Positions 13,650 through 19,254 of a DNA stretch of 64,000 bases are shown here, one piece after another. Under the pieces are notes generated by a model. That model was not told the origin of the DNA, made no database searches, and was given only the letters and a program-made list of their open reading frames with translations. The DNA lies in assembly GCF_045037415.1 (NCBI RefSeq), contig NZ_CP173438.1; one strand, 5' to 3'. The position numbers and the translations under genes were made by a program. Each line of letters begins with the position of its first letter. Position 1 is the first letter of the stretch. Origin of the DNA: Escherichia coli (GTDB taxonomy: Bacteria > Pseudomonadota > Gammaproteobacteria > Enterobacterales > Enterobacteriaceae).

Positions 13650-14840
13650 ATGAGTGAATTTATTGCTGAAAACCGCGGCGCGGATGCCATCACCCGACCG
13701 AACTGGTCAGCCGTTTTCTCGGTGGCATTTTGCGTTGCCTGTCTTATTATCGTTGAGTTTTTGCCCGTCAGTTTGTTGACGCCAATGGCCCAGGATTTAG
13801 GCATTTCGGAAGGGGTTGCCGGGCAATCGGTGACCGTAACCGCTTTTGTGGCGATGTTTGCCAGTTTGTTTATTACCCAGACCATTCAGGCCACTGACCG
13901 CCGCTACGTTGTCATTCTGTTCGCCGTTTTGCTGACGCTTTCCTGTTTGCTGGTTTCCTTTGCCAACTCATTCAGTCTGTTGTTAATCGGTCGCGCCTGT
14001 CTGGGGCTGGCGCTGGGCGGATTCTGGGCGATGTCGGCGTCGCTGACCATGCGTCTGGTACCGCCGCGTACGGTGCCGAAGGCGCTGTCGGTGATCTTCG
14101 GCGCGGTTTCTATTGCGCTGGTGATTGCCGCGCCGTTGGGCAGTTTTTTAGGCGAGCTTATCGGTTGGCGCAATGTCTTTAATGCGGCGGCGGTGATGGG
14201 CGTGCTGTGTATTTTCTGGATTATCAAATCACTGCCTTCGCTGCCAGGCGAACCTTCGCATCAGAAACAAAATACTTTCCGCTTATTACAACGTCCGGGA
14301 GTGATGGCCGGGATGATCGCCATCTTTATGTCCTTTGCCGGACAGTTTGCTTTTTTCACTTATATTCGCCCAGTGTATATGAATCTGGCGGGATTCGGTG
14401 TTGATGGCTTAACCCTGGTGCTGCTGAGTTTTGGTATCGCCAGCTTTGTCGGGACATCGCTTTCGTCGTTTATTCTCAAACGTTCGGTGAAACTGGCCTT
14501 AGCGGGCGCACCGTTTGTGCTCGCCCTGAGCGCGCTGGTACTGACGCTGTGGGGAAGCGATAAAATTGTTGCTACTGGTGTGGCGATTATCTGGGGGCTG
14601 ACCTTTGCTTTAATTCCCGTTGGCTGGTCAACGTGGATCACTCGCTCACTGGCCGATCAGGCAGAAAAAGCCGGATCTATTCAGGTGGCCGTTATTCAGC
14701 TTGCCAATACCTGCGGTGCGGCAATCGGCGGTTATGCGTTGGATAACATTGGTCTGACTTCGCCGCTGATGTTGTCCGGCACATTGATGTTGCTGACTGC
14801 ATTGTTGGTGACTGCAAAGGTGAAAATGAAGAAATCCTGA
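13650..14840 (+). CDS. nepI: MFS purine ribonucleoside efflux pump NepI (396 aa)
   Basis: 12-TM MFS sequence; start at ATG 13650 ([13 protein letters not shown]...); ORF track start 13602 is likely an extension. Confidence 0.88.
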
Positions 14841-14880
14841 TATCAGGTAAAGAAGCGTTGGTCAGTGGTTGTTGCCGTTC

Positions 14881-15174
14881 TTACATATCCGGGCATTCTA
14901 CCTTACCCAACGCTTCCCAATAATTGCTCTGATTATTACGTTCCATCGCTACGATGGCTTCGCGTATGTGTTGTTTATTGCTTTCATCAGACAACATTAA
15001 CTTTTCCCACGCTTCATCTGATAACGATGCCTGCGGGGTACAAATTTTACGTAAATCTTGCAATACCGTGGTTTTCTCTTTTGCCGACTGTAGGGAACTG
15101 AATGGCGACTCGGCCTGAGAAATGGCTGGAAAAATCAGGAATATGGTAATCATGAGTAGCATCGTTGGCTTCAT
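14881..15174 (-). CDS. yicS: small secreted protein YicS (97 aa)
   Basis: MKPTMLLMITIFLIFPAISQA signal peptide; ATG at 15174 verified on sequence. Confidence 0.8.
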   Translation of the reverse strand: MKPTMLLMITIFLIFPAISQAESPFSSLQSAKEKTTVLQDLRKICTPQASLSDEAWEKLMLSDESNKQHIREAIVAMERNNQSNYWEALGKVECPDM

Positions 15175-15395
15175 AGCGGCAACCTTCTGCAAATGTGCAT
15201 CGAATGAAGCATAAGTGTAGTTTGCTTTTGCCGCTCTCATCATGCTGTACGAAAGGTGTTTGCGTGGTCAGTAAGAAGTGCCAGACTTTATATTCCACTT
15301 TTATTCCTTTTTATTCTTATCGATAGCGTTTCGTTTTTTAAACTGCAGCGACCTTACCGCTATAGTCAGGTAATCATTAATAAAAGGATAAAAAA

Positions 15396-16214
15396 ATGAA
15401 ACTGACAACACATCATCTACGGGCGGGGGCCGCATTATTACTGGCAGGAGTTCTGCTGGCAGGTTGCGACCAGAGCAGTAGCGATGAAAAGCATATTAAA
15501 GTTGGCGTTATTAATGGCGCAGAACAAGATGTCGCGGAAGTCGCTAAAAAGGTAGCAAAAGAGAAATATGGCCTCGATGTTGAACTGGTAGGATTTAGCG
15601 GTTCGTTGCTACCGAACGATGCGACAAATCATGGCGAGCTTGATGCGAACGTCTTCCAGCATCGACCCTTTCTTGAACAAGATAATCAGGCGCATGGTTA
15701 TAAACTGGTAGCGGTGGGAAATACGTTTGTCTTCCCCATGGCGGGTTATTCCAAAAAAATCAAAACCGTGGCGCAAATAAAAGAAGGCGCGACAGTGGCG
15801 ATCCCCAACGACCCGACTAACCTTGGTCGTGCGCTTTTACTGCTGCAAAAAGAGAAGCTAATTACTCTGAAAGAGGGAAAAGGGTTATTACCTACCGCGT
15901 TGGATATAACCGATAATCCACGCCATTTGCAGATAATGGAGCTGGAAGGGGCACAGTTGCCACGTGTACTGGACGACCCGAAAGTGGATGTAGCGATTAT
16001 CAGCACCACTTACATCCAGCAAACAGGACTTTCTCCGGTTAACGACAGCGTATTTATTGAAGATAAAAATTCGCCGTATGTGAATATTCTGGTGGCACGG
16101 GAAGATAATAAGAATGCAGAAAACGTGAAGGAATTTCTGCAATCTTATCAATCACCCGAAGTCGCTAAAGCGGCAGAAACCATCTTTAACGGAGGCGCGG
16201 TGCCTGGCTGGTAA
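15396..16214 (+). CDS. nlpA: lipoprotein 28, methionine-binding NlpA family (272 aa)
   Basis: Lipobox LLAGC after signal peptide; MetQ/NlpA family sequence. Confidence 0.92.
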   Translation: MKLTTHHLRAGAALLLAGVLLAGCDQSSSDEKHIKVGVINGAEQDVAEVAKKVAKEKYGLDVELVGFSGSLLPNDATNHGELDANVFQHRPFLEQDNQAHGYKLVAVGNTFVFPMAGYSKKIKTVAQIKEGATVAIPNDPTNLGRALLLLQKEKLITLKEGKGLLPTALDITDNPRHLQIMELEGAQLPRVLDDPKVDVAIISTTYIQQTGLSPVNDSVFIEDKNSPYVNILVAREDNKNAENVKEFLQSYQSPEVAKAAETIFNGGAVPGW

Positions 16215-16217
16215 TTC

Positions 16218-17141
16218 TCACTCATGCCGCGCCGGACGATTTATTTTTCTGGCGCGGCGGCGGGAATCCATTGAAATCAAAATCACCGATGACAGAATCA
16301 GCAGCGTTCCCAGCCAGTCCGGCAATGTGAAGGTGATCCCCAGCAACAGCAAAGAGAGCAGTGCGCTACTTAATGGTTCTGCACAGCTTAAAATGCTGGC
16401 TTTTGGACCACCAATTAATTGTGCTCCTTTCAGGTACAGACTAAATGTCAGGGACGTACCAATGACCACCAAATAAAAAAACGCCAGAATCAAACTGCCG
16501 TTAACGACAAAGTTTGTCCCTTGTCTGGCATAAAAGGGCAGCAGGATCAGACCGCCAATGAGCATACTCCAGCCGACGACCGGTAACGTGCCATAGCGAG
16601 CAATCAGCGTTGAGGGATAGGTGGTATAGAATGCAGCAGCAAATGCCGAGGCAATGCCCCAGAATAACGCGGCAGGAGAGATCGATAATGACGTCGGATT
16701 ACCGTGTGTCACCAATAAAAAAGTCCCGATCAGCGATGTCAAAATAGCGCAAAAAACCAGGATGCCGGGGCGGGATTTACGCACCAGTGAGAACCAGGCG
16801 ACGATAATAGTCGGTGAGAGGAATTGCAGCACCGTTGCCGTGGCTGCGTTCGATTTTTCGATGGTTAGCAAAAAAGTGAGCTGTACGGTTAGCGCGCCAA
16901 CCACGGAAAAAATCAGTAGGCTAATGGCATCTTTGTGATTGTTAATAATAGAAAAGATTTTATCACCATGAACAAATGATAGCGTCAGCAGAATCAATCC
17001 GGCGAATATCAAACGCGTCATAGTCAAAAACTGCGACGACATCTGGCTTTGCTCCATGATGTATTGCGCGCAGACCCCTGAACTTCCCCACAACACGGCG
17101 GCAATCAGAACGTTCAGCATCCCCTTTCTGGTGGAACCCAT
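16218..17141 (-). CDS. yicL: EamA/DMT-family transporter YicL (about 307 aa)
   Basis: 10-TM DMT sequence; ATG at 17141 ([11 protein letters not shown]...) verified; last recognisable core gene before the island. Confidence 0.88.
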
Positions 17142-17318
17142 TTTTCCCTCTGCATACTGTTTTGTCTTTTCATCAATATACGTTAAGGATACCACTACCG
17201 ATGACGGTGAGGGAGTAGAGTAATCAATCAGTTTTAGTGAATGGAGGAAATAATGACATATAACAATTATTCATATGGTGTTTAAAAAACCTCACTAAAA
17301 ACTCAATATGAAATTTAA

Positions 17319-17816
17319 TTATTTAATGTTCAATAACTCTATGGCTTTAGTATATTCATCAGGAATACCAATTATAAAACAAGGTGCGGTATCGGTAGGT
17401 AGATTTTCTTTGTTATCATCATCCAGAACAGAAATAGAAAACTGTCGTTCAGGTGTTGATGTTGTGGTTATTAAAATGGTTGGATTAGGAAGAGAAACAT
17501 ATGTTGTCTCATTTTTTAGTTTTATTCCTTTGATGTTTTCTTTGTTAATTTTATCAATCGTTTCAATAGAGAAAAAAGAATCATGCCCCATTCGCAGTTC
17601 AATTTTATTATCGTTTTCGAATAAATAAAGGGCATTATTGTTTTGAAACAGATTGAATATATTGTTAGCGCAAGTTTGAGTTGCTAGCCAGGATGCCGCT
17701 GGATGACTCAAATTAATATGTGTGCTAAAGACTTTGACGCGACTACTTCTGTTTTTCTCTTTACTTTCAATTAAATGCCTAGCGCTGTTGGCTGCTTTAC
17801 AAGTTCCATGCCCCAC
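17319..17816 (-). CDS. hypothetical protein (GTG start), possible pseudogene
   Basis: 165-aa ORF in AT-rich DNA; the same frame stays open upstream through a hydrophobic segment with no canonical start before a stop at 17922. Confidence 0.25.
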   Translation of the reverse strand: MGHGTCKAANSARHLIESKEKNRSSRVKVFSTHINLSHPAASWLATQTCANNIFNLFQNNNALYLFENDNKIELRMGHDSFFSIETIDKINKENIKGIKLKNETTYVSLPNPTILITTTSTPERQFSISVLDDDNKENLPTDTAPCFIIGIPDEYTKAIELLNIK

Positions 17817-18411
17817 ACGGCAAAAATAATCTCCTGAAAGGATACTTACAATCAGTATTACACCAATGACGACAGAAAAAATAGTTCCGATGAGTTTGAT
17901 GATGACAATCCTTGTGCAGTGTTATTTTCACCATGGATTATAATGTTATAGTGAAATTATTGCACCTGTAATTTTTCTTTGATTGTTTTAATCATCACAT
18001 TTACGCACTTCTTCATCTTTGTAGCAGGTAAAAGCCATATATGGATGGCTGGTGTCCGGTGCAGATAAAATGCAACTTATTCTTGATAGCTTGAAAAAAG
18101 AGAGGTTTTTTTGAGTGACGGTTGATGGTCGGTGGCAAGGAAGACGTTTTCGTACACTCGGCAAGAAAAATGAATCACTCTGTCATACTACCAGATACAT
18201 CAGCAGGGTCAGGTTGCTCAGAAATAAGCAGGATGGGGATCACTGAAGAGGCATTTTGGCGATCACAGGAGTCGAATATGAGTGTTAATGTTTTGATTTT
18301 AAATGATTAACCCGTGTTGGATAAATGAGTAACCCCCATAAGAACCCCCAAATGACTTTGCGTAAGGGAATGAGGCTAAAATACACAATCGAATCAATTA
18401 TTAGAGCTTTC

Positions 18412-19254
18412 TTATGAAGGTAACACTCCCGGATAGTGTTTCGCAATAATCTCATTCAGCCTGTCAACCAGTTCTGGTTTCCTGAACGTGATGTGTGCGG
18501 AGCCCTTCTTAAAGTATCTGATGCTGAACATCTCATCTTCGTAGTCCTCTTTACCTTGAACAGACTGGGTGTGGTCATCCAGATGAATGGTGATGTTTTC
18601 CCGGTTGTCGGGGATCGGTTTGCCGCTGAACAGGTGCAGCATTCTTTCCAGATCGGCAAGTCGATCGGCCTGTTGCCCGGTGATAAGATGAAACCCCCAT
18701 CTGTCCCACCTTACCAGGTTGTTGACGATAATTTTACTGCCAAACTTGCAGGGGCAATTGGTTTTGTAATTCCAGCTCAGTCCCCTGAAGACGTTGATCA
18801 CCCCCCGCTCAAACACTTCATCTTTGTTCTGGTGCAGTTGTTCAAATGTGCTCAGAATGTTCGCTTCACTGATTTCCGGAAAATTATCGTATTCCAGTGA
18901 TCGGTACCATGTATCACGGGCCTGTGCATCCATTAAGGAAAGCATCCCTGAACGTTGCATCAGGTCACGCCAGATTTCGCGGTCAAGATTCCGGGTAATG
19001 GCTTTCATTGCCGTTTCAGGTTTCTCCATGAGCCAGCATCCGCAGCGAAAATCCTGTTTCATGGCCCAGTCCGGGGCAGTTTTACCTCCGATGCTTTCCG
19101 TCAGCACCGAGATTTCAGCCAGTTGCCGGATAAGTGTGTCGATTTGCAGCAGTGTATTCTTTCGTACAGCCAGAATGTGGCAGATTGAGGTGGAACAGAT
19201 AACGTCCGTATGCCCGTTGACCACTTCCGGACGGGAGACTGTGATTTTAGACAT
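18412..19254 (-). CDS. conserved hypothetical protein at distal end of CP4-like cassette (280 aa)
   Basis: Long ORF co-oriented with the cbtA/cbeA cassette; no family recognised by eye. Confidence 0.5.
   Translation of the reverse strand: MSKITVSRPEVVNGHTDVICSTSICHILAVRKNTLLQIDTLIRQLAEISVLTESIGGKTAPDWAMKQDFRCGCWLMEKPETAMKAITRNLDREIWRDLMQRSGMLSLMDAQARDTWYRSLEYDNFPEISEANILSTFEQLHQNKDEVFERGVINVFRGLSWNYKTNCPCKFGSKIIVNNLVRWDRWGFHLITGQQADRLADLERMLHLFSGKPIPDNRENITIHLDDHTQSVQGKEDYEDEMFSIRYFKKGSAHITFRKPELVDRLNEIIAKHYPGVLPS

What the first reader, a model, noticed from the sequence alone, without database searches (positions are those of the whole stretch)
17319..17922. Island-boundary ORF whose frame continues upstream through a hydrophobic segment without a start codon
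Upstream of the called GTG start the frame encodes RIVIIKLIGTIFSVVIGVILIVSILSGDYFC and then hits a stop, with no ATG, GTG or TTG in between. It looks like a signal-anchor protein that has lost its start, or uses an unusual one, right at the core/island junction.
Basis: seen in the sequence. Interest (0 to 1): 0.25.

Follow-up and report, generated by a model that had tools for sequence, protein, structure and literature searches.

The report
Exported protein with non-standard start codon
A small orphan gene next to yicL in uropathogenic-type E. coli is annotated about 28 codons too short: comparison with relatives indicates that it begins at a rare AUC start codon behind a conserved ribosome-binding site and makes an exported protein with an N-terminal signal peptide or membrane anchor.

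Summary
On the minus strand the frame of the annotated 165-aa ORF (GTG at 17816) stays open upstream to a TAA at 17924-17922. It encodes a strongly hydrophobic segment with no ATG, GTG or TTG.

That absence alone is not improbable (P about 0.4). The comparative evidence carries the case:
- Two diverged relatives (71% and 59% identity) keep the hydrophobic segment in frame, under purifying selection (dN/dS 0.15-0.41, against 0.16-0.27 for the body).
- Their upstream frames and their nearest canonical starts are not conserved. The annotated GTG is GTA or CCG in them.
- All three share AAGGA, 8 nt, AUY, AAA.
- A remote homologue in Entomohabitans has the same AAGGA, 8 nt, then GTG-AAA. The remote homologues begin MK plus a hydrophobic helix.
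- Four cysteines are invariant, one of them upstream of the annotated start.

Best reading: the gene is 17900..17319 (193 aa), starts at AUC 17900-17898 (or the AUC 3 nt upstream), and encodes a Sec-exported or membrane-anchored beta-rich orphan protein of unknown function.

It lies about 350 bp beyond a selC 3'-end remnant (18247-18276), so the location at the island junction is also right. No initiation experiment exists. This is a new candidate of a known, rare kind.

The parts
17319..17900 (-). Proposed full coding sequence: 193 aa plus stop (MKLIGTIFSVVIGVILIVSILSGDYFCRVGHGTC...LLNIK). It starts at AUC 17900-17898 and ends at TAA 17321-17319.
   Evidence: Frame and conservation. N-terminus set by alignment with the canonical starts of P0028, P0029 and P0031.
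17898..17903 (-). Tandem AUC AUC. The second (17900-17898) is the preferred start codon and the first (17903-17901) is the alternative. The codons are ATC/ATT in L004 and ATT/ATT in L006.
   Evidence: The second AUC sits 8 nt after AAGGA, the same spacing as the GTG start in L010.
17909..17913 (-). Shine-Dalgarno-like AAGGA. It is invariant in the window, L004, L006 and L010.
   Evidence: Duplex with the 16S 3' end is -5.2 to -5.5 kcal/mol in all four. The 27-nt block around it ranks 10th of 627 windows for three-way conservation.
17922..17930 (-). In-frame stops TGA (17930-17928) and TAA (17924-17922) that close the frame upstream.
   Evidence: The equivalent positions are sense codons in L004 and a different stop occurs in L006, so the upstream frame is not conserved.
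17838..17894 (-). Hydrophobic core LIGTIFSVVIGVILIVSIL, the h-region of a signal peptide or a transmembrane anchor.
   Evidence: Kyte-Doolittle 19-residue mean is 2.89, and 2.1-2.7 in four homologues. AlphaFold predicts a helix at residues 2-21.
17814..17816 (-). GTG annotated as the start by PGAP (165-aa product). It is probably an internal Val codon. It may also serve as a minor internal start in this allele.
   Evidence: Not conserved: GTA in L004 and CCG in L006. An AGGAG lies 13 nt upstream (17835-17831), -7.4 kcal/mol, formed by the conserved Ser-Gly-Asp codons.
17797..17934 (-). Out-of-frame 45-codon ATG ORF (MVKITLHKDC...) that overlaps the extension. It is judged spurious.
   Evidence: There is no SD (+1.8 kcal/mol). 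The frame has stops in L004 and L006.
17937..17942 (-). TATAAT hexamer, a possible -10 element. This is inferred only.
   Evidence: Read from the sequence. L004 has TATTAT at the aligned position. The promoter scan did not call it because the -35 is weak.
18247..18276 (-). Remnant of the 3' end of tRNA-Sec (selC), an attR-like repeat that marks the edge of selC-integrated islands.
   Evidence: 88% identity over 34 nt to the selC 3' end of the ST131 reference locus L001. Sequence read.
18367..18412 (.). Point where this strain stops matching the ST131 and UTI89 references. Beyond it lies island cargo (DUF4942, DUF5983, CbtA, CbeA) instead of rhuM.

Best explanation
The gene is a real, selected protein-coding gene whose N-terminus is mis-annotated.

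Translation most likely begins at a near-cognate AUC codon (17900-17898; possibly the AUC 3 nt upstream). It is positioned by a conserved Shine-Dalgarno AAGGA (17913-17909) 8 nt (or 5 nt) upstream, and initiator tRNA would insert Met. The product is 193 aa.

- It starts with a short positive n-region (M-K).
- A 16-19-residue hydrophobic helix follows.
- Then comes a conserved Ser/Thr-Gly-Asp/Asn motif.
- A beta-rich domain with four invariant cysteines follows.

The protein is therefore inserted by the Sec pathway. It is either cleaved after ..LSG (signal peptide) or stays N-in/C-out in the inner membrane (signal anchor). Either way the domain faces the periplasm, where the cysteines can form disulfides.

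AUC and AUU initiate at only about 1-2% of AUG, so output should be low and sensitive to IF3.

Shown: open frame, conservation, selection, the SD/start alignment, hydrophobicity, invariant Cys. Inferred: actual use of AUC, export, cleavage, low expression. The biochemical function of the domain is unknown.
For: 1. The extension is conserved in frame in L004 (71% identity) and L006 (59% identity), gapless over 197 codons.
2. dN/dS over the 32 extension codons is 0.15, 0.41 and 0.32 for the three pairs, against 0.27 and 0.16 for the body (the third pair is saturated). Second-codon-position changes are the rarest: 2/31, 6/30 and 5/36.
3. No canonical start is conserved. The window has GTG at codon 33, L006 has ATG at codon 18, and L004 has only a GTG 33 codons upstream. 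The upstream frames are closed by stops in the window and in L006.
4. The DNA block AAGGAT-YKKCAT-Y-ATY-AAA-CTY-ATY-GG is 74% invariant across the three, ranking 10th of 627 windows. The 60 nt upstream fall to 33% invariant.
5. Entomohabitans teleogrylli P0029 has AAGGA, 8 nt, GTG-AAA, with a TGA closing the frame 5 codons upstream. P0028 and P0031 start ATG(ATG)-AAG. All begin MK plus a hydrophobic helix, then G/N-D..C.
6. SD duplex energy is -5.2 to -5.5 kcal/mol in the window, L004, L006 and L010.
7. Cys27, Cys34, Cys77 and Cys174 are invariant in 7 sequences. Cys27 lies upstream of the annotated GTG.
8. The Kyte-Doolittle 19-residue mean is 2.1-2.9 in all five lineages.
9. The start regions of L004 and L006 are identical in independent samples L005 and L007.
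10. AUC initiates with Met in E. coli at about 1-2% of AUG. Only infC and pcnB (both AUU) are confirmed non-canonical starts (bioRxiv 10.1101/063800).
Against: - There is no experimental evidence of initiation here: no ribosome profiling, toeprint or N-terminal peptide.
- Only three lineages carry the AUY state and only five lineages exist in all, so the comparison is thin.
- Ile codons would be conserved at these positions anyway if they were internal residues.
- The GTG at 17816 has a stronger SD-like AGGAG (-7.4 kcal/mol), though 13 nt away. A truncated cytoplasmic product cannot be excluded in this allele.
- L004 could use its own upstream GTG.
- Some E. coli lineages (UTI89 type) carry a frameshift in the body, which shows that the gene is dispensable and decaying in part of the population.
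- I could not run a signal-peptide predictor.
Confidence: 0.65

Rival explanations
1. Start-loss pseudogene. An ancestral ATG or GTG in front of the hydrophobic segment mutated, the full-length protein is no longer made, and the locus is decaying. At most a truncated GTG product appears.
For: - Remote homologues use ATG or GTG at the aligned position.
- UTI89-type alleles have a frameshift in the body.
- The gene is present in only 1103 of 5426 E. coli genomes.
- AUC is a very weak start.
Against: - Three lineages with pS of 0.41-0.77 share the AUY state and still show dN/dS of 0.15-0.41 in the segment that would be untranslated.
- The SD and its spacing are conserved.
- Cys27 is invariant.
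- Three independent G-to-Y changes at the same base would otherwise be needed.
Confidence: 0.12
2. The annotation is right. Translation starts at GTG 17816, the product is a 165-aa cytoplasmic protein, and the upstream hydrophobic frame is an untranslated coincidence.
For: - PGAP calls it in every listed genome.
- AGGAG lies 13 nt upstream of the GTG, at -7.4 kcal/mol.
- The absence of start codons upstream is not improbable in itself (P = 0.41).
Against: - The GTG is GTA in L004 and CCG in L006.
- The AGGAG is simply the conserved Ser-Gly-Asp codons.
- The upstream segment is under protein-level selection.
- Remote homologues start before the helix.
- A cytoplasmic protein would lose invariant Cys27 and keep three unpaired conserved Cys.
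Confidence: 0.08
3. Translation starts at the out-of-frame ATG at 17934 and reaches the gene frame by a +1 shift at the U-run (ACU AUU UUU UCU). This would be programmed frameshifting or homopolymer phase variation.
For: - An ATG exists at 17934 with a 45-codon ORF that overlaps the extension.
- Database proteins P0013, P0017, P0025 and P0021 are exactly such fusions, caused by T6 to T5.
Against: - There is no SD before this ATG (+1.8 kcal/mol).
- The ATG and its frame are absent or stop-ridden in L004 and L006.
- The fused database sequences carry additional homopolymer frameshifts downstream, which is typical of sequencing error.
- 1081 of 1104 E. coli records are identical to the window over 17880-17960.
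Confidence: 0.03

Closest known systems
infC and pcnB of E. coli, the two genes with experimentally confirmed AUU start codons
   Same: - A near-cognate AUN start codon sits behind a normal Shine-Dalgarno sequence.
- The codon is conserved among orthologues.
- Expression is expected to be low and discriminated by IF3 (background and established knowledge of IF3 discrimination).
   Different: - The codon here is AUC in E. coli (AUU in relatives), and no E. coli gene with a confirmed AUC start is known to me.
- The gene is an accessory orphan, not a housekeeping regulator.
- No autoregulatory logic is apparent.
- Nothing has been tested experimentally.
Sec signal peptides and type II signal anchors of small periplasmic proteins
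   Same: - It begins M-K and continues with a 16-19-residue hydrophobic helix.
- A small-residue motif (L/I-S/T-G) follows.
- The downstream domain has conserved paired cysteines.
   Different: - The h-region is at the long end for a cleaved signal peptide, so an uncleaved anchor is equally possible.
- There is no lipobox.
- No predictor or experiment was available.
Small periplasmic beta-barrel proteins such as PliC/MliC lysozyme inhibitors and Brucella PhiA
   Different: - Z stays at or below 5.5, sequence identity is 4-7%, and Foldseek E-values are all above 1.
- Generic barrels such as NspA, lipocalins and avidins score the same.
- The model is of only moderate confidence (pLDDT 69.7).
- No sequence-family hit was found. 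This is a lead only.
selC-associated genomic islands of E. coli and Salmonella (rhuM-bearing SPI-3-like remnant; CP4-type islands with cbtA/cbeA)
   Same: The locus lies just beyond the selC 3'-end repeat that bounds such islands. The island side carries DUF4942, DUF5983, CbtA and CbeA here, and rhuM in the ST131 and UTI89 references.
   Different: The gene sits outside the repeat, on the yicL side. It keeps its place next to yicL in a diverged Escherichia lineage, L004. So it is not cargo of the present island.

Membership tests
Genes with a natural non-canonical (AUU/AUC) start codon (infC/pcnB kind) | No canonical ATG/GTG/TTG is available at the conserved N-terminus of the protein. | tested here: met
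   There is none between the upstream stop and codon 33 in the window. None is conserved among the window, L004 and L006.
Genes with a natural non-canonical (AUU/AUC) start codon (infC/pcnB kind) | A near-cognate codon lies at a functional distance from a Shine-Dalgarno sequence. | tested here: met
   AAGGA lies 5 and 8 nt before the tandem AUC AUC, with a duplex of -5.2 kcal/mol.
Genes with a natural non-canonical (AUU/AUC) start codon (infC/pcnB kind) | The near-cognate start and the SD are conserved in orthologues and align with canonical starts of more distant homologues. | tested here: met
   ATC/ATT/ATT in three lineages. The same SD and 8-nt spacer precede GTG in Entomohabitans. The sample is small, at five lineages.
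Genes with a natural non-canonical (AUU/AUC) start codon (infC/pcnB kind) | Initiation at that codon is demonstrated (N-terminal sequence, toeprint, Ribo-RET, mutational analysis), with IF3 dependence. | not testable with these tools
   No expression data are accessible. The literature search for the protein accessions found nothing.
Sec-exported proteins (cleavable signal peptide or signal anchor) | A positively charged n-region is followed by a hydrophobic h-region. | tested here: met
   The sequence begins M-K and then LIGTIFSVVIGVILIVSIL. The Kyte-Doolittle 19-residue mean is 2.89 and the predicted helix covers residues 2-21.
Sec-exported proteins (cleavable signal peptide or signal anchor) | A signal peptidase I site with small residues at -1 and -3. 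| tested here: inconclusive
   L-S-G|D (I-S-G, I-T-G in homologues, but Y-T-N in P0028) is compatible but not typical. No SignalP-type predictor was available.
Sec-exported proteins (cleavable signal peptide or signal anchor) | Extracytoplasmic hallmarks in the mature part, such as conserved cysteine pairs. | tested here: met
   Four invariant Cys in 7 sequences. Disulfide formation itself was not tested.
Bacterial lipoproteins | A lipobox L-[AS]-[GA]-C at the end of the signal peptide. | tested here: not met
   The sequence reads ILSGDYFC. The Cys is 4 residues after the Gly in all Escherichia-type members.
Any curated protein family (Pfam-A, NCBIfam) or solved structure | A significant profile or sequence match. 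| tested here: not met
   The best Pfam E-value is 0.038, below cut-off. NCBIfam gives 0.13. The PDB sequence profile search found none at E <= 1.
PliC/MliC/PhiA-type periplasmic beta-barrel inhibitors | A shared eight-stranded barrel fold with a significant structural score. | tested here: inconclusive
selC-integrated genomic island (cargo gene) | The gene lies between selC and the direct repeat of the selC 3' end. | tested here: not met
   The repeat is at 18247-18276 and the gene lies beyond it, towards yicL.

The most novel reading that the evidence does not exclude
This would be the first natural AUC-initiated gene of E. coli, and a third IF3-discriminated start after infC and pcnB. On this reading the weak AUY start has been kept by selection for a long time, so that an exported protein is held at a very low level gated by IF3 or stress. 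A canonical start would be harmful, for example because the membrane or periplasmic protein is toxic. The AUY start would then be a regulatory device and not a defect.
Probability: 0.25. Interest if true: 0.6.

Novelty: new member of a known kind. Interest (0 to 1): 0.4.

Why it matters
[quoted passage not shown] Whether more exist is an open question raised by the all-64-codon measurements. This locus offers a concrete, testable candidate with comparative support, and it may be the first AUC case.

In practical terms, the RefSeq model for this protein in about 1100 complete E. coli genomes (ST131, UTI89, Nissle-type and other lineages) probably lacks its signal sequence. That changes the predicted location from the cytoplasm to the envelope. 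Location matters for an ExPEC-associated orphan protein.

It is also a reminder that gene callers restricted to ATG/GTG/TTG can turn exported proteins into cytoplasmic ones.

Tried and rejected
- **Family searches.** Pfam, NCBIfam and a PDB sequence profile gave no family.
- **Genome-contig scan.** A scan with peptide patterns found no relative in species-representative genomes.
- **Metagenome DNA-pattern scan.** A pattern for the YVSLPNP codons returned only B2-type E. coli alleles and no new lineage.
- **Plasmid tblastn.** The single hit is a chromosome mis-filed as a plasmid.
- **Rfam and RNA folding of the leader.** Nothing of note: snR78 is a chance hit at E = 0.11, and the fold z-score is -0.6.
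- **Promoter and terminator scan.** No call upstream of the gene.
- **Frameshift from the ATG at 17934.** Rejected because it is not conserved and has no SD.
- **Lipoprotein.** Rejected because there is no lipobox.
- **Literature search.** The protein accessions returned nothing.
- **Variation among E. coli in the start region.** It is too low to be informative. 1081 of 1104 records are identical over 17880-17960, and the one variant inspected is a C-to-A change next to the TATAAT.

Full report
**1. The observation.**
The window is E. coli of the B2/ST131 type: 901 bases around the finding are 100% identical to many ST131 chromosomes. On the minus strand, PGAP annotates a 165-aa hypothetical protein (WP_000509815.1) starting at GTG 17816 and ending at 17319.

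Translating further upstream in the same frame gives *K*HCTRIVIIKLIGTIFSVVIGVILIVSILSGDYFCR-V(GTG)GHGTC. The frame is closed by TAA at 17924-17922 and TGA at 17930-17928. There is no ATG, GTG or TTG in between.

This absence is not statistically remarkable on its own. Keeping the amino acids and redrawing codons from the gene's own usage gives no canonical start in 41% of trials.

**2. Is the extension translated?**
The protein family is tiny. Two large protein searches and an exhaustive HMMER scan of 1.84 billion representatives found the following members:
- E. coli alleles;
- two diverged relatives, P0003 (71% identity; loci L004/L005) and P0014 (59% identity; L006/L007);
- three remote ones, P0029 from Entomohabitans teleogrylli (L010), and P0028 and P0031 (L009).

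In L004 and L006 the hydrophobic segment is present, in frame and gapless: RIVIIKLIGTIITLLLSIVVISNLISGDYFC and RICIIKLIGFLFSFVLVMILISNIISGNVVC.

Nei-Gojobori counts over the 32 extension codons give dN/dS of 0.15, 0.41 and 0.32 for the three pairs, against 0.27 and 0.16 in the annotated body. Synonymous divergence is high (pS 0.41-0.77). Second codon positions change least: 2/31, 6/30 and 5/36 differences. The other two frames of this stretch contain stops in the relatives.

Four cysteines are invariant in all seven aligned sequences, and the first of them (Cys27) lies upstream of the annotated GTG. The extension is therefore part of a selected protein.

**3. Where does translation start?**
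No canonical start is conserved:
- The window's GTG (codon 33 counted from AGG) is GTA in L004 and CCG in L006.
- L006 has an ATG in the middle of the helix.
- L004 has only a GTG 33 codons upstream. That stretch corresponds to stop-containing sequence in the window and in L006.

What is conserved is a DNA block:

| Locus | SD | Spacer | Start | Next codons |
|---|---|---|---|---|
| window | AAGGA | TTGTCATC | ATC | AAA CTC ATC GG |
| L004 | AAGGA | TCGTCATC | ATT | AAA CTT ATC GG |
| L006 | AAGGA | TTTGCATT | ATT | AAA CTC ATT GG |

This block is 74% invariant and ranks 10th of 627 27-nt windows in the three-way alignment. The 60 nt upstream drop to 33% invariant.

The decisive comparison is Entomohabitans. 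It reads AAGGA TTTTAAGC GTG AAA AAA, with a TGA closing the frame five codons upstream. The Shine-Dalgarno sequence, the 8-nt spacer and the following lysine codon are the same, but with a canonical GTG where E. coli has its second ATC. L009 has (ATG)ATG-AAG at the same place.

The proteins of these remote members begin MKKIIQTVYFMILVMAVITVITGDGWYCKVG and MKGTIKIALYLMLAIGVIVSVYTNDSYTCRV. They start directly before the helix. The distance from the start to the first invariant Cys matches that from the second ATC to within one residue.

The duplex of the leader with the 16S 3' end is -5.2 to -5.5 kcal/mol in all four loci.

I therefore place the start at AUC 17900-17898. The AUC at 17903-17901, 5 nt from the SD, is an alternative that I cannot separate.

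According to Hecht et al. (bioRxiv 10.1101/063800, read):
- AUC initiates with methionine in E. coli.
- AUA, AUC, AUU and CUG give about 1-2% of AUG.
- Only infC and pcnB, both AUU, are confirmed non-canonical starts in E. coli.

**4. What the product is.**
The 193-aa product has M-K, a hydrophobic core LIGTIFSVVIGVILIVSIL, then S-G-D. The Kyte-Doolittle 19-residue mean is 2.89, and 2.1-2.7 in the other lineages.

This is the layout of a Sec signal peptide, with a possible but atypical cleavage site at L-S-G|D, or of an N-in/C-out signal anchor. There is no lipobox.

AlphaFold, with only seven sequences, gives pLDDT 69.7 and pTM 0.63: an N-terminal helix, a second helix and a mainly beta domain. 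Structure searches give nothing significant:
- Foldseek E-values exceed 1 against PDB and exceed 0.3 against BFVD.
- There is no Pfam, NCBIfam or PDB sequence match.

Export is inferred from the signal-like N-terminus and the four invariant cysteines. The biochemical function remains unknown. A PliC/PhiA-like inhibitor barrel is only a lead.

**5. Rivals.**
- (a) **Start-loss pseudogene.** It is contradicted by purifying selection across lineages that all share the AUY state, and by conservation of the SD. It is not excluded for particular alleles. UTI89-type alleles carry a +1 A frameshift in the body and are annotated as 122 aa.
- (b) **The annotated GTG is the true start.** It has an AGGAG 13 nt upstream at -7.4 kcal/mol. 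However, this AGGAG is the conserved Ser-Gly-Asp codons, the GTG itself is not conserved, and this start would discard an invariant Cys. A minor internal start in this allele remains possible.
- (c) **A +1 shift from the ATG at 17934.** Database fusions of that kind (P0013, P0017, P0025, P0021) carry additional homopolymer frameshifts and look like sequencing errors. The ATG has no SD and is absent in the relatives.

**6. Context.**
The neighbouring genes are yicL, nlpA and yicS, at lower window coordinates than the gene.
- Similarity to the ST131 and UTI89 references runs from 14200 to 18367.
- It then stops. Those references have rhuM and then selC, whereas this strain has the end of a different island: DUF4942 at 18412-19254, then DUF5983, CbtA and CbeA.
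- A 34-nt copy of the selC 3' end (88% identity) lies at 18247-18276. It is the attR-like edge of selC islands.

The gene lies about 350 bp outside that repeat. It is also next to yicL in the diverged Escherichia-like contig L004. So it is a junction gene and not island cargo.

It is present in 1103 of 5426 complete E. coli genomes. The 81 nt around the start are identical in 1081 of 1104 records, and none has anything annotated there. In L006 the homologue sits in an integrase-associated element. In Entomohabitans it sits between ygiQ-like and dkgA-like genes. There is no conserved partner gene.

**7. Verdict.**
- I put about 0.85-0.9 on 'the extension is translated' and about 0.65 on the full model including the AUC start.
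- It is a new candidate member of a known, rare kind (natural near-cognate start codons), of moderate interest, and cheaply testable.

Noticed in passing
window 17465-17466 (minus strand); L002 (UTI89): UTI89-type alleles have an extra A (AACC-ACAAC becomes AACCAACGAC). It frameshifts the gene body, so PGAP annotates a 122-aa product there. Part of the B2 population therefore carries a broken copy.
   Followed up: partly
window about 17289-17299, just 3' of the gene: An 11-nt indel (TTTTAGTGAGG present in the window and GF130, absent in UTI89) lies between the gene's stop and yicL.
   Followed up: no
L008:5000-5002 (equivalent to window 17912-17910): A low-coverage (4.6x) gut-metagenome allele has AGG changed to ATG. 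This creates a canonical start (MIVIIILIGS...) but destroys the AAGGA. The same allele also has an internal deletion. It may be a real compensatory variant or an assembly error.
   Followed up: partly
window 17876-17881 and 17568-17573 (T6 runs, minus strand): Several database proteins (P0013, P0017, P0025) derive from T6 to T5 length changes at these runs. They fuse the out-of-frame ATG ORF to the gene and then truncate it. This is probably homopolymer sequencing error, but phase variation was not excluded.
   Followed up: partly
window 18247-18276 and 18367-18412: A selC 3'-end remnant (attR-like) sits at 18247-18276. About 100 bp further on, this strain's island (DUF4942/DUF5983/CbtA/CbeA) replaces the rhuM of the ST131 and UTI89 references. 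No tRNA gene is found anywhere in the 64-kb window, so the island exceeds 45 kb on this side.
   Followed up: partly
window 47898-48594: A stretch 72-73% identical to the rhuM gene of the reference strains lies deep inside the island. It is a diverged second rhuM-like gene.
   Followed up: no
window 17141-17195 (yicL 5' end) and 15173-15243 (yicS 5' end): The mechanical ORFs for yicL (325 aa, GTG 17195) and yicS (120 aa, ATG 15243) are longer than the RefSeq models (307 aa and 97 aa). These are ordinary start-site ambiguity. The shorter yicS form begins with a signal-peptide-like MKPTMLLM.
   Followed up: no
PLSDB record NZ_CP134663.1 (hit H71): A 4.9-Mb E. coli replicon is filed in the plasmid collection as a non-mobilizable plasmid. 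It is evidently a chromosome.
   Followed up: no
L006:3547-4233 (minus strand): In the integrase-associated element that carries the 59%-identity homologue, the adjacent convergent gene encodes a 228-aa multi-pass membrane protein with no Pfam family. No equivalent is found beside the E. coli gene.
   Followed up: no
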